From sequence record OZ346158.1: DNA of 64,000 bases; one strand, given 5' to 3'. The notes below the pieces were generated by a model, which did not search any database, was not told the DNA's origin, and saw only the letters and a program-made list of their open reading frames with translations. This document shows positions 1,439-62,038 of this stretch, one piece after another (positions within the stretch are counted from its first letter, which is position 1; every line of letters begins with the position of its first letter). The stretch is from a phage. The translations under genes and the position numbers were made by a program.

Positions 1439-3510
1439 TGGCAACAGCTGTTTTTAAACCTTACCGTGATTACTCTACAATGGCTGCACAGTTTCATTAC
1501 CGCACAGTTCAGGATACTGCCGTTCCTGGTAGAGATTATGATCATGTTGAGGGCGATGTAACTATCCCAGTTGGGGCAACCAGTATTGAGATCCCAGTGG
1601 AAATTGTTGACAAATTACCCAACAGGTTGCCAAGAAGCTTCTTTATGGAGTTTTCATCAAAATCTCAAGGAGTGATGATTGGAACACAAAGGGCGAAATG
1701 TACAATAGTTTCAGATGAGAATCTTGACAGGATATCTTGGGATACTGTTGAGGAGAGAATGTTTCACCCAAGATATTGGGTTACAACCACTCAGCAGACT
1801 GAAAGTACCTGTATTGTTGCAGATAACAACTGTTGTATTAACCGTTTAGTGTCAAGAACATATGGAGGTATGGCTGGGTGCATTTGGGAAACAGTTGACA
1901 AGTATGACCATTTCGGTATTGGGTTTGATGATCACTATGAGATGAGAAACACCAAGCTTTGGTTCAGAATGTCAATAACCAACGCCAGCAACTTCTCCAC
2001 TCCTGAAAAGATGATTATGACTGTAGACCTTGTTGATGGCACAATCATCTATGTTCCTTTAGCTCAATATGCTGTCAGCATCTCAGAGGATAAAAATGTT
2101 GCAGAAATTCATATTGATTTTGAGGACTGCGTCGGGATGGACCAGAACAACAACATGATGGGTGTTGATCCTCGGCAGGTGAGAAGGATTTTAATACCAC
2201 TTATGCCTAAAGACTGGGTAAGTAATAGCACAGATCCAAGAACGGAAAATGTAGAGTGTGAGTTGCGCCTAGATCTGCTTCAGCCAGACACAGGCTGGAA
2301 AATGATGCAACTTAATAATATCCAGGTGAGAGAGCACGACGTTGGGATCTGCACCGCATATGACGATATGTGGAACGTGTCCCCTTTAAGGGTGTTGAAC
2401 AATATCAAGCGTCTGGGCTATACCGGAACCATAAACCATTATGTTGGTATGAGTCATTATTATGACTACACATGGTCAGGAACCCAATGGTCTATAAACA
2501 GAACAGGAGCGCTAAACGCTGCAGCTTATAAATGGCATGATGATTTTATGTACAATGCCAAACGACATAACTTCGACGTTATGCAATCTGTAAGTTTTGA
2601 GCTTTTCAGCGATGCCTGCCCGTTGGAATGGACCCAAAGAGACTGGAACGATAACTACGCTAAAACAGGGTATACACCTTGTAGCTACCTCCTGTCTCCA
2701 ACCATTGAAGAGGGTATGAATTTCCTTACTGCAGTATTTAAGAATTTTGCATCAGCCGCTATGAGAAACAACCTGCCAGTGATTATGCAGGTTGGTGAAC
2801 CGTGGTGGTGGTACAATACCGATACTCGTAGACCTTGTATTTATGATTACCCTACAAAGCAGGCGTTTTATGATGAGACAGGTGAGTATGCATTAGATAT
2901 TGGGACTATTGACGATCCTAAAACTGGCGGTGTTTACGACAAGTATGTAGCATTTTGTCGTGGTAAGCTTGGCGCTCGTATTGCTGCTATTTCAAAGGCA
3001 ATAAAGGCACACGCTGCATCAGCTCAGATGACAGCTCTGCTGTTTTTCCCAACCATTATGGAAACCGAGCTTACGCAAAAGCTTAACCTTGCTGACCAAT
3101 ATAAAAAGGAAGCAGGTGCTCTTGATTTCTTCTGCACCGAGTGCTACGATTGGGTGATGCAGGGAGGTATTGAAAAGGCAAAAGAGTCTGTAAACATACC
3201 TATCGTTAAGTTAGGTTGGCAACCGTCTGAAATACAATACCTTGCAGGGTTCGTTCCTAGTAAAGAGCTTGCTCCGGTATATGGTTACGACCCAACTAGG
3301 AATTACCAAGAATTTTTATGGAGATGTATTTGCGGAAACATGGCAACTATAGAGTATAGATACCCTGAGGTAAAACAGTATGTGTGGGCATACCCGCAAG
3401 TAATGTCTGACAGCATCACTGTTACCGCTAGAGATTCTACCGTGCTTCATATGGGGCAGGTTGCTCTGAAAGGGTATGTAGAAGATGTTGTCCCGCCAGA
3501 CTTCTCATAA
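1438..3510 (+). CDS. hypothetical large virion protein (690 aa)
   Basis: Long uninterrupted ORF, GGAGGG RBS, translationally coupled to upstream gene; function not recognisable. Confidence 0.65.
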   Translation: MATAVFKPYRDYSTMAAQFHYRTVQDTAVPGRDYDHVEGDVTIPVGATSIEIPVEIVDKLPNRLPRSFFMEFSSKSQGVMIGTQRAKCTIVSDENLDRISWDTVEERMFHPRYWVTTTQQTESTCIVADNNCCINRLVSRTYGGMAGCIWETVDKYDHFGIGFDDHYEMRNTKLWFRMSITNASNFSTPEKMIMTVDLVDGTIIYVPLAQYAVSISEDKNVAEIHIDFEDCVGMDQNNNMMGVDPRQVRRILIPLMPKDWVSNSTDPRTENVECELRLDLLQPDTGWKMMQLNNIQVREHDVGICTAYDDMWNVSPLRVLNNIKRLGYTGTINHYVGMSHYYDYTWSGTQWSINRTGALNAAAYKWHDDFMYNAKRHNFDVMQSVSFELFSDACPLEWTQRDWNDNYAKTGYTPCSYLLSPTIEEGMNFLTAVFKNFASAAMRNNLPVIMQVGEPWWWYNTDTRRPCIYDYPTKQAFYDETGEYALDIGTIDDPKTGGVYDKYVAFCRGKLGARIAAISKAIKAHAASAQMTALLFFPTIMETELTQKLNLADQYKKEAGALDFFCTECYDWVMQGGIEKAKESVNIPIVKLGWQPSEIQYLAGFVPSKELAPVYGYDPTRNYQEFLWRCICGNMATIEYRYPEVKQYVWAYPQVMSDSITVTARDSTVLHMGQVALKGYVEDVVPPDFS

Positions 3511-47324: not shown

Positions 47325-47387
47325 GAGGTTGACATCTGAAAACTGCAGTGTATAATATACGCATAAACTAACAGAGAGCGATGTATT

Positions 47388-51307: not shown

Positions 51308-51335
51308 TTGACAAGCTAACTTAAATCAGTATAAT
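51308..51335 (+). promoter_or_regulatory. sigma70-like promoter TTGACA-16-TATAAT
   Basis: Consensus -35 and -10 hexamers, then leader hairpin and RBS for gene 51388. Confidence 0.6.
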
Positions 51336-57779: not shown

Positions 57780-58064
57780 ATGAAAAAGATGATCGCAGTG
57801 GTTGCCCTGGTTGTTGGACTTAATGCGCCTGTAATGGCTAAAGAGCTGGCAAAAGAGGTTAATCTAACGGATATTCATGCCGTCAATCGAATCGGGGTTA
57901 CTTATCGCTTATGCCTTGCCGCTAAAACTTTTAAGGACGGCACGACAGAGTACTACGGATTCGAAGGTGTCCGGTGCGGTGAACTTGCTCGCGACCTTAA
58001 GGAAGATCCAGACCTGGAGGATCTGCCCATCACCGTAAACGGGAAAACTTACGTAAACCGTTAA
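57780..58064 (+). CDS. secreted/periplasmic small protein
   Basis: 94 aa; signal peptide MKKMIAVVALVVGLNAPVMA; AGAAAGAGGATAG RBS. Confidence 0.55.
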   Translation: MKKMIAVVALVVGLNAPVMAKELAKEVNLTDIHAVNRIGVTYRLCLAAKTFKDGTTEYYGFEGVRCGELARDLKEDPDLEDLPITVNGKTYVNR

Positions 58065-58212
58065 CCATGATAAAGATAATCATCACCTTGGCATCGTGGC
58101 GGGATCGCTGGCGCTCTTTCTCCTTATGGTTAGGTATGTGCTGATCGGTATTGTCCTGGTAGTCAGTGATCTATTGGAAACGGTTGGCACCTTGTTTTAA
58201 AGAGCGGTAAAA

Positions 58213-58404
58213 ATGAATATCGAACAAGTTAGAAAGGTATTGGCGGTACTGCGTTATCATAATCATAGAAAGGTCATAGACGATCCTGATTATGTCGATT
58301 CAAGCCTGGAAGGGGATACACTACAAGCCATAAGTAACATGCAAGAATTGCTAAAGCGCATGACAGAGAAAAACCGACCGGACTACATAGGCGAAAAAAT
58401 ATAA
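58213..58404 (+). CDS. hypothetical protein
   Basis: 63-aa ORF, weak RBS. Confidence 0.4.
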   Translation: MNIEQVRKVLAVLRYHNHRKVIDDPDYVDSSLEGDTLQAISNMQELLKRMTEKNRPDYIGEKI

Positions 58405-58467
58405 TCCTTATAAACTACAAAACAGGGCTTGCAATGGTCCTGTTTTTTGTTATACTTGTTTCACGGC

Positions 58468-58505
58468 AGGCGCCTGGCGACGGGGGAGACAATCACCGGG
58501 TGTGC
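58468..58505 (-). repeat. inverted copy of the 49.35/49.48-kb CCGGTGATTGTCTCCC element
   Basis: GGGGGAGACAATCACCGGG on + strand is the reverse complement of the motif at 49346 and 49479; flanks GCCTGCCGT also shared. Confidence 0.6.
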
Positions 58506-58615
58506 CTGCTATATAAAAACTATAAAAACCGTTGACATCTGCCAGGTGGTGGGGTAGCATTTATCTCGAAGGGGGCAAAAGCGCCCACACAACAACCGGA
58601 AGAGAGGAAAACGCC

Positions 58616-58888
58616 ATGTTAAGCTGGATTAACCAAGAAGTTGAATCACGTTTCAATGCTATTTGGGATCTCATCGAAAAAGAGGACGGAACATCAAGCC
58701 CTTATCTCAATAATCTTGAATTCCATTTCGTGGAAGCGATGAACGCAGAACATGATCACGAAGGTGGTGCGGATGAATTCGCTAAAGGATATGGCTTCAA
58801 CAATGCCAACGAAATGATCGAGGCGGTTGTACTCCAGGCTGAGGAAGATTATCAATTAAAAACGCTTGAATTCTGCCGCCGTAAGTAA
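58616..58888 (+). CDS. hypothetical protein
   Basis: ATG after GAAGAGAGGAAAA; TTGACA promoter-like at 58531. Confidence 0.5.
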   Translation: MLSWINQEVESRFNAIWDLIEKEDGTSSPYLNNLEFHFVEAMNAEHDHEGGADEFAKGYGFNNANEMIEAVVLQAEEDYQLKTLEFCRRK

Positions 58889-58950
58889 TAAGATAATGAC
58901 ACGGGCCAAAAGGCCCACTAAACAAAAACCACATAAAGAGGAAAAACATC

Positions 58951-59214
58951 ATGAAACGTCTTGATCAGCTCAAATTAGTTCAATATATGGCTTATCGTGT
59001 TCTTGAAGTCCAGAAAGGTAGCAAAAAAGAGGTTTGCGAGAAAGCTTATAAGATCTTCACTCGCAAAAAAGATGATTGGATGTTACGCCAGACCAAAAAA
59101 GCCGATATCTTGGGGTACCTGGAAGAAGAGATCCGGCTTGAAGAGCAAGAAGAGATCCGCCGCAGTGAGGCAGATTATCAGGCAGCTTGGGAAAACTGGA
59201 TGAATAACAAATAA
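58951..59214 (+). CDS. hypothetical charged protein
   Basis: 87 aa, AAAGAGGAAAAACATCATG RBS. Confidence 0.5.
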   Translation: MKRLDQLKLVQYMAYRVLEVQKGSKKEVCEKAYKIFTRKKDDWMLRQTKKADILGYLEEEIRLEEQEEIRRSEADYQAAWENWMNNK

Positions 59215-59280
59215 TACAACAAGTTACATGGTCAGGGGCAATAAAGCCCCTTGATCACATAAAAATTATGCCATCCTTGG

Positions 59281-59309
59281 TTGACAGGGATCGGCAGTTT
59301 TGCTATATT
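59281..59309 (+). promoter_or_regulatory. sigma70-like promoter TTGACA-17-TATATT
   Basis: TTGACAgggatcggcagttttgcTATATT upstream of gene 59359. Confidence 0.55.
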
Positions 59310-59358
59310 CTTTTTTGAAGGGAAGTTGTAAGAAAATTAACTAAGAGGTAAAAACACC

Positions 59359-59778
59359 ATGAACATTAAATCTAATAATCCGGCATATAGCTTTGATAAC
59401 GCTTTTTGTCACGGTCCGGCGGCGAAAGGATTCGAAATCGATGGTAAACTAGTTATTGTCAATGTTGACGGGGAAGAGGTTGCAGTATATCCGGTGGCAG
59501 ACGTTAAAAGCCGTCTACAATGCCGCATCGATGTTACCGCCTACCAGCTTGATCCGGTCCGGGTAGTTGCCCTGGTCCTGGAAGAAGAAATTAAAGCAAT
59601 GCACCACAGCAACAAGTTTATTGGTGACGCTCAAGATAATATGAAGGTGTGCCGCCATAAAGTTAATGAAGTGCTTAAAGAATATGGCTTTAAAGATCTG
59701 ATGATCAAACGTGAGGAAAAATTCCGCTACCGTAACGACCTGGCAAATCGGATTTTTGAAATATACGAATCATTATAA
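59359..59778 (+). CDS. hypothetical protein
   Basis: 139 aa, CTAAGAGGTAAAAACACCATG RBS; followed by terminator. Confidence 0.55.
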   Translation: MNIKSNNPAYSFDNAFCHGPAAKGFEIDGKLVIVNVDGEEVAVYPVADVKSRLQCRIDVTAYQLDPVRVVALVLEEEIKAMHHSNKFIGDAQDNMKVCRHKVNEVLKEYGFKDLMIKREEKFRYRNDLANRIFEIYESL

Positions 59779-59796: not shown

Positions 59797-59826
59797 AAGG
59801 GGCTTAAAGGCCCCTTTCTTTTTGTC
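59797..59826 (+). terminator. rho-independent terminator ending the + strand small-gene array
   Basis: AGGGGC-TTAAAG-GCCCCT followed by TTCTTTTTG. Confidence 0.75.
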
Positions 59827-60591
59827 TGCTCTTCTCCTACCATAAACGGCCCTACCTGGCAAGTGGAATAATTGACTAGCCATCAATCCCACATACTGTA
59901 CAAATATACATGGAAAATAACTATTGCATAATTTTTCATTGTGTGGTAGCAAGTCCATTTTTACCCGTTTTCTCTCCCAAAAGTGCACGTAATGCCGCTA
60001 TTGCACAAATTTTAACCTGATGCACATCTCCAATATCTTGTCAACAACTAAAAATCTTTATAAGTCATACACTTACACAGCATCGAAAGCGTGTTCTACG
60101 CGAAAAATCGAGTATAACTATAGCCGCCAGATCTCAGAATTCACGTACGCACGCCATTCTATAGCCTGCAAAGTATTTATTCCAACCACAGAATAACGGA
60201 ATAGTCAATACCTGCATAAAATAATTATTCGTGTAAACTGCATAACATAAATCAGCTCAGGTGTCAACATTTTTCGTAAACAGTCCGAAATTATCACGAT
60301 GAGTTATCATAAACAGAGAAATCTTTAGTCGTCTAATGTTTACTGTACATTACTATACTGACTGGAATCATTAGATGACTAATACAATAGAACAAATTAA
60401 TAATGTAATTATTTTACCTGTAACAATAAGGCAACTATGCAAACGAATGGCATGGCGCGACGGAGTCGCGACATAATATAAAAGCAGTAACCATCACCCC
60501 CGTGATAGTTTGTCTGCAAACTATTAATCAGATCATAGTTGCCTTGTATTTAGTTAATCATGACATAACAAGCAAGGCAACTATAGATATA
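59827..60591. other. AT-rich non-coding region with multiple hairpins/inverted repeats
   Basis: No credible ORF; hairpins ATAGTTTG-TCTG-CAAACTAT (60506), ATAGTTGCCTTG...CAAGGCAACTAT (60538/60580, third copy of AAGGCAACTAT at 60424), TAGTCGTCTAATG...CATTAGATGACTA (60326/60376). Confidence 0.5.
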
Positions 60592-60849
60592 CTAAACCAT
60601 AGCTTCAAAAGGAGTCATGAACGAATAAACGGCATCATCATCTGCTTCAGGGAATGCTCCCAAAGACTTCATATCTGAACCCTTGACAAATACAAGGTTT
60701 TGATCAAAGGCTTCTTGGGGGTCAATCCGATACATATTTCGTAGAATATCGCTTACCTCCTCATCAAGAGGTGAGTATGCTGTGCACGTTTTTCCGATCA
60801 AGCTTTGAGAATCAGGGTATCCACCTGAAGTTTTAAAATAAACAATCAT
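60592..60849 (-). CDS. hypothetical protein
   Basis: 85-aa ORF, last gene of - strand block. Confidence 0.45.
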   Translation of the reverse strand: MIVYFKTSGGYPDSQSLIGKTCTAYSPLDEEVSDILRNMYRIDPQEAFDQNLVFVKGSDMKSLGAFPEADDDAVYSFMTPFEAMV

Positions 60850-60940
60850 ATAGTATCACCTCTGGTAAGAGATTGGGATTCCTTTCCCACAAATAATTAC
60901 AAATCTTCCTTATCGAGGAAGTATGCTAATCCAAGCAGGA

Positions 60941-61210
60941 TTATTCCTCTACAATCTCATACACATCAGGAGTTACAATCAATTCTTCTCCGTTACCCGG
61001 TGCAACAAACACCACCAAACCTTCAGGTGTGTGCTTTTTAGCCATCTCGATAACATCTTCTCGCAGAGCTGGCTCCATCAGATCAAAACCTTCACCCAGG
61101 GCATCACGAACCACCTTCATATAGTCCACTGGTTGTGCTTCAACAATCATGCCTTCAACCAGTCCACAGTTTTTGTCTGCCAGCTCAGTTTTGAATAATT
61201 TAATTTTCAT
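60941..61210 (-). CDS. hypothetical acidic protein
   Basis: 89 aa, GAGGAGA RBS on - strand. Confidence 0.5.
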   Translation of the reverse strand: MKIKLFKTELADKNCGLVEGMIVEAQPVDYMKVVRDALGEGFDLMEPALREDVIEMAKKHTPEGLVVFVAPGNGEELIVTPDVYEIVEE

Positions 61211-61236: not shown

Positions 61237-61338
61237 TTAATAGCCGTAACCTAACACATTAACTACAACTGCGATTGCAAACATAATTTCAAAGCATGCA
61301 ATCTCTACATTTGGGACTAATTTCTTAATCACACCCAT
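61237..61338 (-). CDS. possible small membrane peptide (33 aa)
   Basis: Below track cutoff; GAGGTG RBS-like; hydrophobic. Confidence 0.3.
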   Translation of the reverse strand: MGVIKKLVPNVEIACFEIMFAIAVVVNVLGYGY

Positions 61339-61347
61339 TGTAGCACC

Positions 61348-61665
61348 TCATTTTCCAAAGTCAATCTTTACTTTGCCTTTCCCCTTACCTTTCTTTCCAC
61401 CGCATTTAGCCAGCTGACGTGCTGCAACATCTACCATACGGTCAGTTGCCTCGTAAGCATCACTACCTTTAGCCTTGGCAATAACTTCTTTTCCAGAATT
61501 GTCAAAAATGAACGCCATAACTTCCTGGTGATCATTTTCAACTTTTACACTCACACGTGCATAGTTGGCAGAGGGGTGCAAACGCTCCAGTTTAGACATT
61601 TTGTTGGAAATGAAAGACACCATACCTTCAGTGATTTCTACGTTGCCAGTGATTTCAATTTGCAT
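61348..61665 (-). CDS. hpf: ribosome hibernation promoting factor / RaiA family (Ribosomal_S30AE) homologue
   Basis: 105 aa; N-terminus MQIEITGNVEITEGMVSFISNKMSKLERL...VKVEN aligns by eye with E. coli HPF MQLNITGNNVEITEALREFVTAKFAKLEQ...LKVEK; ARQLAK near C-terminus; own - strand promoter TTGACA-17-TATCAT (61713..61741) preceded by a terminator hairpin. Confidence 0.8.
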   Translation of the reverse strand: MQIEITGNVEITEGMVSFISNKMSKLERLHPSANYARVSVKVENDHQEVMAFIFDNSGKEVIAKAKGSDAYEATDRMVDVAARQLAKCGGKKGKGKGKVKIDFGK

Positions 61666-61712
61666 AACGTGTTCCTTTTAAAGAAGAGGGAACCAAACCC
61701 TCTTTGAAAACA

Positions 61713-61741
61713 ATGATACTAAATCTGAAGCGTTGTGTCAA
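61713..61741 (-). promoter_or_regulatory. sigma70-like promoter TTGACA-17-TATCAT driving the HPF homologue
   Basis: Reverse complement reads TTGACAcaacgcttcagatttagTATCAT about 45 nt upstream of HPF start; terminator-like hairpin AGAGGGAACCAAACCCTCT lies just upstream at 61684..61702. Confidence 0.55.
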
Positions 61742-61747
61742 CAGTTT

Positions 61748-62038
61748 TTACAGATTGTTGTCGATAGTTTTTAAAATATCCACAGCAAGATCTGCCATTT
61801 TTCGAACATACTCTGCAAACTCAACAGGATCCTTGATCAAAGAATTCACAGGGTCGTACCCTAGAGCGTTCAAAATGGCTGCAGCATCTACAACCTTCTC
61901 ATCATTTGCGAAGATCTCTCCATCAAACTTGTAGGTCCATTTTGAGTCAATCTTGGCAGGGAAGGATTGGTCAACGCTTGTTACACCATCCTTTTTAAAC
62001 GCTCCGGTGTTATCAGTGTCCAGAACTAAATCCATCAT
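61748..62038 (-). CDS. hypothetical protein
   Basis: 96-aa ORF. Confidence 0.5.
   Translation of the reverse strand: MMDLVLDTDNTGAFKKDGVTSVDQSFPAKIDSKWTYKFDGEIFANDEKVVDAAAILNALGYDPVNSLIKDPVEFAEYVRKMADLAVDILKTIDNNL

What the first reader, a model, noticed from the sequence alone, without database searches (positions are those of the whole stretch)
61348..61741. Phage-encoded ribosome hibernation factor (HPF/RaiA) homologue with its own promoter
The 105-aa protein begins MQIEITGNVEITEGMVSFISNKMSKLERL...VKVEN, closely matching the N-terminus of bacterial HPF/YfiA (Ribosomal_S30AE). It sits as a self-contained cassette: upstream terminator hairpin, a TTGACA-17-TATCAT promoter, then an AAGGAA RBS. 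A phage carrying a ribosome-silencing factor suggests manipulation of host translation during infection, which is uncommon among phage auxiliary genes as far as I know.
Basis: partly seen in the sequence, partly recalled or inferred. Interest (0 to 1): 0.75.

Follow-up and report, generated by a model that had tools for sequence, protein, structure and literature searches.

The report
Known rV5-phage ribosome hibernation factor gene
This is a real HPF/RaiA-family ribosome hibernation factor gene in an rV5-like E. coli phage, but it has been annotated since 2006 and was described and tested in a 2019 paper, so only its function during infection remains open.

Summary
The 105-aa ORF (61348-61665, minus strand) is real and belongs to the HPF/RaiA (Ribosomal_S30AE) family. 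It scores 48.9 bits on Pfam PF02482 (cut-off 23.7) and 46.1 on TIGR00741 (cut-off 40.9). The "upstream terminator hairpin" is not: it lies downstream of the -10 box in the mRNA leader, has no U-tract, is no more stable than shuffles, and is absent from a diverged relative. The gene is not a closed cassette either, because the next ORF starts 9 nt after its stop codon. The window is an rV5-like coliphage (Vequintavirus). rV5's GenBank record already annotates this gene (ORF 144) and its promoter (P144). Mizuno et al. 2019 listed the protein, expressed it in E. coli, and did not find it in high-salt-washed ribosomes. New here: the lineage is long diverged from cellular HPFs, is under purifying selection, and carries an invariant Lys/Gly-rich basic tail unlike those of HPF or RaiA. 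It keeps some published ribosome-contact residues (K26, E60, R83, K87, K91 equivalents) and has lost others (T53, H55, K80, K89). Verdict: correct but already known.

The parts
61348..61665 (-). HPF/RaiA-family gene (homologue of rV5 ORF 144), 105 aa plus stop codon
   Evidence: ORF listing; Pfam, TIGRFAM and PDB matches; 98% identical to rV5 ABI79209 / P0001
61402..61665 (-). Folded S30AE core, residues 1-88: strands 2-7, 33-42, 47-55 and 60-67; helices 13-29 and 70-88
   Evidence: AlphaFold2 model with core pLDDT of about 90-96; Foldseek rmsd 1.1-1.4 A over 89 residues to 4hei, 6h4n_x and 2rql
61351..61401 (-). Disordered Lys/Gly-rich C-terminal tail, residues 89-105 (GGKKGKGKGKVKIDFGK, net charge +6)
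   Evidence: pLDDT below 50; charge count; nearly invariant in six other Vequintavirus alleles; sequence differs but stays basic in diverged P0004
61672..61677 (-). Shine-Dalgarno-like AAGGAA, 6 nt upstream of the ATG
   Evidence: Read from the sequence; conserved in Vequintavirus alleles
61684..61704 (-). 7-bp hairpin in the 5' leader (AAGAGGG / CCCTCTT, 7-nt loop); not a terminator
   Evidence: Fold of -9.9 kcal/mol, z = -0.01; uncompensated changes in V18 and DrSchubert; 3' arm absent in the diverged lineage, where GAGGG is the RBS
61713..61741 (-). Sigma70-type promoter (rV5 P144): -35 TTGACA at 61741-61736, 17-nt spacer, -10 TATCAT at 61718-61713
   Evidence: Promoter scan, 11/12; annotated as P144 in DQ832317; -35 box conserved in diverged lineage L002, with an extended -10
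61237..61338 (-). 33-aa hydrophobic ORF (rV5 ORF 145 homologue), starts 9 nt after the HPF stop, probably co-transcribed
   Evidence: Translation; rV5 and pangalan annotation
60592..61210 (-). Two further small ORFs (rV5 ORF 146 and 147 homologues) downstream on the same strand; no known domains
   Evidence: ORF list; no Pfam hit; rV5 annotation
61748..62038 (-). Upstream gene (rV5 ORF 143 homologue); its stop codon lies 6 nt before the -35 box
   Evidence: ORF list; sequence; no Pfam hit

Best explanation
This is the Vequintavirus (rV5-type) copy of a short HPF-like ribosome hibernation factor, equivalent to rV5 gp144. Shown: it is an S30AE-family protein with the HPF fold. It is conserved in essentially the whole genus and in a diverged sister lineage at the same genomic position. 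It is under purifying selection. It sits behind a near-consensus host sigma70 promoter, at the head of a short run of small ORFs. Inferred: host RNA polymerase transcribes it without phage factors, so it is probably made early in infection. The protein then binds vacant 30S/70S ribosomes in the decoding channel (A/P-site), as HPF and RaiA do. It would use the retained contacts: phage K25 (E. coli K26), E60, R83, K87 and K91. The invariant flexible Lys/Gly tail would add non-specific rRNA affinity and, like RaiA's longer tail, probably reach toward the RMF pocket. That would make it act more like RaiA (holding and protecting idle 70S monomers and competing with host HPF, RaiA and RMF) than like a promoter of 100S dimers. 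The likely benefit to the phage is control or preservation of the host ribosome pool, for example in slow-growing or stationary hosts. About 0.97 of my confidence is for family membership. Only about 0.5 is for ribosome binding in vivo, and less for the RaiA-like detail. The confidence figure given for this explanation refers to the ribosome-binding mechanism as a whole.
For: Family: PF02482 at 48.9 bits against 23.7, TIGR00741 at 46.1 against 40.9, and E. coli HPF in the PDB at E 6e-12. [quoted passage not shown] Conservation: present in 119 phage records of this genus. A 64%-identical copy (P0004) sits in the same slot of a diverged phage contig. Selection: pS 0.81 (saturated) against pN 0.26 versus L002, and dN/dS 0.13 versus rV5. 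Contacts: alignment A3 mapped onto the published contact list shows K26, E60, R83, K87 and K91 equivalents retained. Tail: net +6, disordered and invariant. The preprint reports that RaiA's tail heads toward the RMF site. Promoter: 11/12 match, annotated as P144, and retained in the diverged lineage. Such sites are about 9-fold enriched in the window.
Against: Mizuno et al. 2019 expressed rV5 HPF in E. coli. They detected it in crude extract but not in 70S or 100S fractions, and saw no change in 100S. However, the ribosomes had passed through a 500 mM NH4Cl cushion and the cells were late-exponential, and the authors themselves list salt stripping and growth phase as possible causes. Several contacts reported as conserved in Gram-negative HPFs are lost: K80 to V, K89 to G, H55 to F and T53 to F. 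The protein fails the E. coli HPF equivalog cut-off (56.2 against 125) and the RaiA equivalog cut-off (18.2 against 158). No transcriptome, TSS map or mutant phenotype was found in the literature searched. The tail's path on the ribosome could not be modelled here.
Confidence: 0.5

Rival explanations
1. Anti-hibernation decoy. The phage protein competes with host HPF, RaiA or RMF but binds weakly or transiently. It thereby prevents 100S formation or wakes hibernating ribosomes, so that phage mRNAs can be translated in starved cells. This is the hypothesis put forward by Mizuno et al. 2019.
For: Proposed in PMC6375957. Weakened contacts (K80V, K89G, H55F, T53F) and absence from salt-washed ribosomes fit low-affinity, reversible binding. 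A tail longer than that of short HPF could occlude the RMF site, as RaiA's does.
Against: Expression in E. coli had no discernible effect on 100S, although few 100S particles were present to begin with. There is no direct competition data. Occupying the decoding channel is itself inhibitory, so a decoy would still need to be displaced.
Confidence: 0.2
2. Classical HPF function. Together with host RMF it converts 70S ribosomes into 100S dimers and shuts down host translation.
For: By sequence it is closer to short HPF than to RaiA: NF007780 E 3e-15 against NF007654 E 3e-3. The best structural matches are HPFs.
Against: Expression had no effect on 100S. It scores far below the HPF equivalog cut-off. 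The 17-residue basic tail has no counterpart in short HPF. Global silencing would also hit phage mRNAs.
Confidence: 0.1
3. The fold has been repurposed. [quoted passage not shown]
For: It was not detected on ribosomes. Four of the listed contact residues are lost. Outside its own lineage no relative exceeds about 47 bits among 1.84 billion representatives, so it has evolved independently for a long time. Weak Foldseek matches beyond the family are dsRNA-binding domains (ranks 38, 42, 50).
Against: The invariant R83 and K87, and K26 on the ribosome-facing helices, are kept across both phage lineages and in both E. coli factors. The core is under strong purifying selection. No alternative partner is suggested by any data.
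Confidence: 0.15
4. A neutral passenger recently captured from the host, with no role in infection.
For: Mizuno et al. suggested a relatively recent transfer, based on alignment conservation.
Against: It is only 41-43% identical to E. coli HPF and has no close cellular relative anywhere. It is retained in about 119 genomes and in a 64%-identical sister lineage at the same locus. Synonymous sites are saturated while pN is 0.26.
Confidence: 0.03

Closest known systems
rV5 gp144 (ABI79209, 'sigma 54 modulation factor' / HPF) and its Vequintavirus orthologues
   Same: This is the same gene: 98% identical protein, same length, same promoter P144, same leader and same neighbours.
   Different: The window allele has N21 (rV5 has H21) and a terminal K105 where all six other alleles examined have E. 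This genome also lacks about 6.56 kb (rV5 ORFs 148-163 and part of the non-coding region) shortly downstream.
E. coli short HPF (YhbH; PDB 2rql, 6h4n)
   Same: Same fold at 1.2-1.4 A rmsd with 41-43% identity. The N-termini align from residue 1. The K26, E60, R83, K87 and K91 equivalents are retained.
   Different: It fails the HPF equivalog cut-off (56.2 against 125). T53, H55, K80 and K89 are replaced. The tail is a 17-residue Lys/Gly stretch rather than the 7-residue KDKLKQH, and the pI is 9.2 rather than 6.5. Promotion of 100S was not seen on expression.
E. coli RaiA / YfiA / protein Y
   Same: Same fold and same predicted binding site. Both have a flexible C-terminal extension beyond helix alpha-2, which in RaiA runs toward the RMF site. 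RefSeq names the phage protein RaiA.
   Different: Sequence support for RaiA is weak (18.2 bits against a 158 cut-off). The tail sequences are unrelated. RaiA's tail ends in an acidic run (net -4), whereas the phage tail is net +6.
HPF homologues of jumbo phages (Cronobacter phage GAP32 in Mizuno 2019; Xanthomonas phage XaC1)
   Same: They are also phage-borne PF02482 proteins.
   Different: The XaC1 protein has no pairwise BLASTP similarity to the window protein. It has an acidic RaiA-like tail and sits among tRNA-processing genes. These are independent acquisitions. The window protein falls in its own PHROG (12469), separate from phrog_8990.
Phage-encoded ribosomal proteins (bS21, bL12; Mizuno et al. 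2019)
   Same: Both belong to the same class of translation-machinery genes carried by phages, and were analysed in the same paper.
   Different: bS21 and bL12 were shown to be incorporated into E. coli ribosomes. rV5 HPF was not detected there under the same high-salt protocol.

Membership tests
HPF/RaiA superfamily (Pfam PF02482 Ribosomal_S30AE; TIGR00741) | Profile match above the curated cut-offs | tested here: met
   PF02482 scores 48.9 bits against 23.7. TIGR00741 scores 46.1 against 40.9.
HPF/RaiA superfamily (Pfam PF02482 Ribosomal_S30AE; TIGR00741) | [quoted passage not shown] | tested here: met
   [quoted passage not shown] Rmsd is 1.1-1.4 A over 89 residues to 4hei, 6h4n_x and 2rql, and the top 37 hits are all family members.
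HPF/RaiA superfamily (Pfam PF02482 Ribosomal_S30AE; TIGR00741) | Conserved ribosome-contact residues (E. coli numbering K26, T53, H55, E60, K80, R83, K87, K89, K91) | tested here: inconclusive
   K26, E60, R83, K87 and K91 are retained. T53 to F, H55 to F, K80 to V and K89 to G are changed. This comes from alignment A3 mapped onto the contact list of bioRxiv 10.1101/2025.10.07.680626.
HPF/RaiA superfamily (Pfam PF02482 Ribosomal_S30AE; TIGR00741) | Binds the 30S decoding channel of vacant ribosomes | not testable with these tools
   The only published test did not detect the protein in 70S or 100S fractions after a 500 mM NH4Cl wash, and the authors call this non-conclusive.
Enterobacterial short HPF (NCBIfam NF007780 equivalog) | Score above the equivalog cut-off | tested here: not met
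   56.2 bits against a cut-off of 125. This is the best-scoring specific model, but the protein is not an orthologue.
Enterobacterial short HPF (NCBIfam NF007780 equivalog) | Promotes RMF-dependent 100S dimers | not testable with these tools
   Published expression in E. coli showed no discernible effect on 100S.
RaiA / YfiA (NCBIfam NF007654 equivalog) | Score above the equivalog cut-off | tested here: not met
   18.2 bits against a cut-off of 158. The RefSeq name 'RaiA' is therefore not supported at this level.
RaiA / YfiA (NCBIfam NF007654 equivalog) | C-terminal extension that occludes the RMF site | tested here: inconclusive
   A 17-residue disordered extension exists, but it is unrelated in sequence and opposite in net charge. 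Its path on the ribosome was not modelled.
Long HPF (Gram-positive type) | C-terminal dimerisation domain, protein of about 180-190 aa | tested here: not met
   The protein is 105 aa and has no second Pfam domain. Long HPFs match only through their N-terminal domain, for example 8uu4_w at E 0.0018.
Sigma70-dependent promoter | -35 and -10 hexamers close to consensus, with a 16-18 nt spacer, upstream of the gene | tested here: met
   TTGACA-17-TATCAT is an 11/12 match. It is annotated as P144 in rV5. There are 12 such sites in the window against 1.36 expected. The -35 box is conserved in the diverged lineage. Activity itself was not tested.
   The hairpin at 61704-61684 lies downstream of the -10 box, and only 3 T follow it. 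The scan does not call it and z = -0.01. It is absent in L002.

The most novel reading that the evidence does not exclude
The rV5-type protein is neither a plain HPF nor a plain RaiA but a phage-specialised third type. Its invariant Lys/Gly tail would let it seize vacant or hibernating host ribosomes, exclude RMF and host HPF/RaiA, and shield rRNA from host nucleases or ribosome-targeting defence toxins. That would let Vequintaviruses exploit slow-growing or stationary-phase E. coli. Nothing found here excludes this, and nothing tests it directly.
Probability: 0.2. Interest if true: 0.55.

Novelty: already known. Interest (0 to 1): 0.2.

Why it matters
The existence of this gene is not news. 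It has been in GenBank since 2006 and was highlighted in 2019-2020 papers as a phage auxiliary gene. What remains open is what a lytic coliphage gains from a hibernation-factor homologue, and whether the protein touches the ribosome at all, since the only experiment was negative under conditions expected to strip such factors. The points added here make that question sharper and directly testable in a tractable E. coli system (rV5 and the BASEL-collection Vequintaviruses). Those points are long divergence from cellular HPFs, strong purifying selection, an invariant basic tail, partial loss of canonical contacts, and a host-type promoter.

Tried and rejected
(1) Hairpin as terminator: rejected on position, missing U-tract, z = -0.01, uncompensated changes, and absence in the diverged lineage.

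(2) Recent capture from the host: rejected. Identity to E. coli HPF is 41-43%, and no cellular relative scores above about 47 bits among 1.84 billion representatives.

(3) A second HPF copy next door: ORF 60941-61210 is labelled 'sigma 54 modulation factor' in some records but has no S30AE or other Pfam match, so the label is a propagated error.

(4) P0006, a 1160-aa hit with eight 'HPF-like' stretches, is a PPC-domain repeat protein and therefore spurious.

(5) The word-indexed protein search returned only 5 close relatives, so the exhaustive HMMER search was needed.

(6) Literature searches for a newer functional study or a transcriptome of rV5-like phages found nothing relevant. One search was too loose and returned nothing useful.

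(7) Polikanov et al. 2012 was not held under the id I tried. Contact residues were taken from bioRxiv 10.1101/2025.10.07.680626 instead.

(8) There are no tRNA genes and no Rfam families in the window.

HPF residues 1-89 agree with the PDB alignment. RaiA matched the PDB chain except for one residue (T99), which was corrected for alignment A3. The charge and pI figures used the uncorrected D99 sequence.

Full report
**1. What is in the sequence**

The minus strand carries a 318-nt ORF at 61348..61665. The upstream layout on the minus strand is as follows:

- The previous gene's stop codon is at 61750-61748.
- Six nt later comes the -35 box TTGACA at 61741-61736.
- A 17-nt spacer follows, then the -10 box TATCAT at 61718-61713.
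- A 7-bp hairpin, AAGAGGG-tttggtt-CCCTCTT, lies at 61704-61684.
- AAGGAA is at 61677-61672, with the ATG at 61665.

The promoter scan scores the site 11/12. Sites of at least 11/12 number 12 in the 64-kb window, against 1.36 expected from first-order Markov sequences (maximum 5 in 100 trials). Near-consensus sigma70 sites are therefore a real feature of this genome, not chance.

**2.

The "upstream terminator hairpin" is not upstream of the promoter. It lies between the -10 box and the RBS, in the predicted mRNA leader.

- Only three T follow the stem, and the terminator scan does not report it.
- Its folding energy equals the mean of shuffles (z = -0.01).
- In phages V18 and DrSchubert the 5' arm carries uncompensated changes.
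- In a diverged sister lineage the 3' arm and the AAGGAA box are missing altogether, and the GAGGG of the "stem" serves as the RBS.

The gene is not a closed cassette either. A 33-aa hydrophobic ORF starts 9 nt after the stop codon, with its Shine-Dalgarno overlapping that stop. Two more small ORFs follow on the same strand, and no terminator-like site lies in between. P144 is best read as an internal promoter in a long co-directional array of small genes. Kropinski et al. 2013 describe the same arrangement as the rV5 gene 82-163 transcription unit.

**3. What the protein is**

- **Sequence.** It passes the curated cut-offs of Pfam PF02482 Ribosomal_S30AE (48.9 against 23.7 bits) and TIGR00741, the HPF/YfiA family (46.1 against 40.9). 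The best solved relatives by sequence are E. coli HPF chains (E about 6e-12, residues 1-89 aligned to 1-89).
- **Fold.** An AlphaFold2 model built on a 23-sequence alignment has mean pLDDT 85 and core values of 90-96. Its topology is beta(2-7), alpha(13-29), beta(33-42), beta(47-55), beta(60-67), alpha(70-88). Residues 89-105 are disordered.
- **Structural matches.** The top 37 Foldseek hits against the PDB are all HPF, RaiA or pY proteins. V. cholerae HPF matches at 1.1 A and ribosome-bound E. coli HPF (6h4n_x) at 1.2 A over 89 residues.

**4. Subfamily**

The protein is closer to short HPF than to RaiA (NF007780 E 3e-15 against NF007654 E 3e-3). It fails both equivalog cut-offs, 56.2 against 125 and 18.2 against 158. 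It has no long-HPF dimerisation domain. It is a family member but not an orthologue of either E. coli factor. The RefSeq name "RaiA" is a family-level label at best.

**5. Where it comes from, and prior knowledge**

The window is an rV5-like coliphage of the genus Vequintavirus, 99.9% identical over this stretch to Escherichia phage pangalan.

- The rV5 GenBank record DQ832317 already annotates ORF 144 as "sigma 54 modulation factor". It also annotates "Sigma70-type promoter; P144" directly upstream.
- Relatives label the gene hpf, ribosome hibernation factor or RaiA.
- Mizuno et al. 2019 (PMC6375957) list rV5 ABI79209 among virus-encoded ribosome-associated proteins. They expressed it from pBAD24 in E. 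coli and found its peptides in crude extract but not in purified 70S or 100S ribosomes. They saw no effect on 100S.
- Their ribosomes had been pelleted through 500 mM NH4Cl from cells at OD600 = 1. The authors name salt stripping, growth phase and genuine loss of binding as possible reasons.
- Mathieu et al. 2020 (PMC6969025) again list hpf as an auxiliary gene of rV5 phages.

I found no later functional study. The finding is therefore already known.

**6. What this analysis adds**

- **(a) Distribution.** A tblastn search with the phage protein finds 119 phage records, all but one at 93% identity or more and all in the rV5 group. A search with E. coli HPF finds 130 of 50,697 records, about 118 of them the same genus. 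The rest include a Xanthomonas jumbo phage, Listeria and Enterococcus records, and short faecal contigs. The gene is thus a hallmark of one genus and rare elsewhere.
- **(b) Age.** An exhaustive HMMER scan of 1.84 billion representatives finds only one close relative, P0004 at 65% identity. The next true HPF-family hit reaches about 47 bits at 45% identity or less. A slightly higher-scoring hit, P0006 (52 bits), is a spurious PPC-repeat protein. Identity to E. coli HPF is 41-43%. This contradicts a recent capture from the host.
- **(c) Sister lineage.** P0004 sits in the same syntenic slot of a phage-like contig of about 126-137 kb. Only 12-16% of its 10-kb neighbourhood matches known phages at 80% identity or more. 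The TTGACA -35 box and its flanks are conserved there, with a different, extended -10.
- **(d) Selection.** Between the window and L002, synonymous sites are saturated (pS 0.81) while pN is 0.26. Against rV5, dN/dS is 0.13. The gene is maintained by purifying selection.
- **(e) Tail.** Residues 89-105, GGKKGKGKGKVKIDFGK, carry a net charge of +6 and give the protein a pI of 9.2. E. coli HPF has a 7-residue tail (pI 6.5), and RaiA has a 25-residue tail ending in an acidic run. The tail is nearly invariant in six other Vequintavirus alleles. In P0004 it is basic but different in sequence.
- **(f) Ribosome contacts.** I mapped the contact list of a 2025 cryo-EM preprint onto alignment A3. The equivalents of K26, E60, R83, K87 and K91 are kept. 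T53 and H55 are both replaced by F, K80 by V and K89 by G.

**7. Mechanism**

These points are shown: family membership, fold, conservation, purifying selection, and a host-type promoter motif.

The rest is inferred. Transcription by unmodified host RNA polymerase would mean early expression. The protein would bind the decoding channel of vacant 30S/70S ribosomes through the retained alpha-1 and alpha-2 basic residues. The flexible basic tail would add rRNA affinity and may reach toward the RMF pocket as RaiA's tail does. That would make the protein more RaiA-like, holding or protecting 70S monomers, than 100S-promoting.

The published negative binding result and the four lost contacts keep my confidence in ribosome binding near 0.5. 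The rivals are an anti-hibernation decoy (Mizuno's proposal), a classical 100S promoter, a repurposed fold with another target, and a neutral passenger. The last is disfavoured by points (b) to (d).

**8. Comparison and verdict**

The protein works like, and is a member of, the HPF/RaiA superfamily. It is not a member of the enterobacterial HPF, RaiA or long-HPF subfamilies as defined by their curated models. The Xanthomonas jumbo-phage HPF shows no pairwise similarity to it and sits among tRNA-processing genes, so phages have acquired such genes independently. The window protein has its own PHROG family, phrog_12469, annotated "unknown function".

The regulatory anatomy is partly wrong, and the finding is already in the databases and the literature. 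Interest is low. The residual value lies in the unresolved function and in the distinctive conserved tail.

Noticed in passing
window ~60569-60594 (junction); compare rV5 DQ832317 99268-105824: This genome lacks about 6.56 kb that rV5 and other relatives carry just downstream of the HPF sub-operon: ORFs 148-163 plus about 1.8 kb of rV5's 'non-coding' region. The junction falls right after the stop codon of the ORF 147 homologue. No record in the phage collection spans the junction. It may be a natural deletion variant or an assembly artefact.
   Followed up: partly
window 60941-61210 (-): This 89-aa ORF is labelled 'sigma 54 modulation factor' in phage pangalan and sibling records, but it has no S30AE or any other Pfam match, so the label is a propagated error. 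Some records instead label the true HPF gene 'ATP-dependent protease La type I'.
   Followed up: yes
window 61237-61338 (-): A 33-aa hydrophobic ORF (MGVIKKLVPNVEIACFEIMFAIAVVVNVLGYGY, rV5 ORF 145 homologue) starts 9 nt after the HPF stop codon. Its Shine-Dalgarno GAGGTG overlaps that stop. It may be a small membrane peptide co-expressed with HPF.
   Followed up: partly
phage collection records MG0656xx ('Campylobacter phage' C15, A12a, D#, etc.): About 18-24 records named Campylobacter phages are 95-98% identical to rV5-like coliphages across this region (up to 24 kb compared) and carry the same HPF gene. The host attribution looks wrong, or the preparations contained coliphage.
   Followed up: no
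window 61351-61353 (last codon of the HPF gene): The window allele ends ...DFGK, whereas all six other Vequintavirus alleles examined, including the 99.9%-identical pangalan, end ...DFGE.
   Followed up: partly
whole window; e.g. 47329-47356 (+), 51308-51335 (+), 62229-62201 (-): Twelve near-consensus sigma70 promoter matches (at least 11/12, two of them perfect 12/12) occur in the window, against 1.36 expected. This fits the rV5 paper's view that host RNA polymerase is used across the genome. The window has no tRNA genes and no Rfam families.
   Followed up: partly
window 59797-59816 (+) and 60510-60489 (-): Plus-strand genes (57780-59778) and the minus-strand array containing HPF converge here. 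A strong terminator-like hairpin (AAGGGGCTTAAAGGCCCCTT followed by a T-run) sits at the end of the plus-strand unit, and a weaker one lies on the minus strand.
   Followed up: no
L010 (Xanthomonas phage XaC1, OR258281) 3001-3390: This jumbo phage carries a 129-aa S30AE protein with an acidic RaiA-like tail, close to genes for a tRNA nucleotidyltransferase and a tRNA amidotransferase. It has no BLASTP similarity to the rV5-type protein, so it is an independent acquisition.
   Followed up: partly
L002-L004 (Logan contigs ERR6997038_58, ERR4623478_391, SRR25571739_58736): These contigs come from a vequintavirus-like phage lineage not represented in the phage collection. Only 12-16% of 10 kb matches at 80% identity or more. 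The lineage keeps a 64%-identical HPF in the same slot, behind a conserved -35 box.
   Followed up: partly
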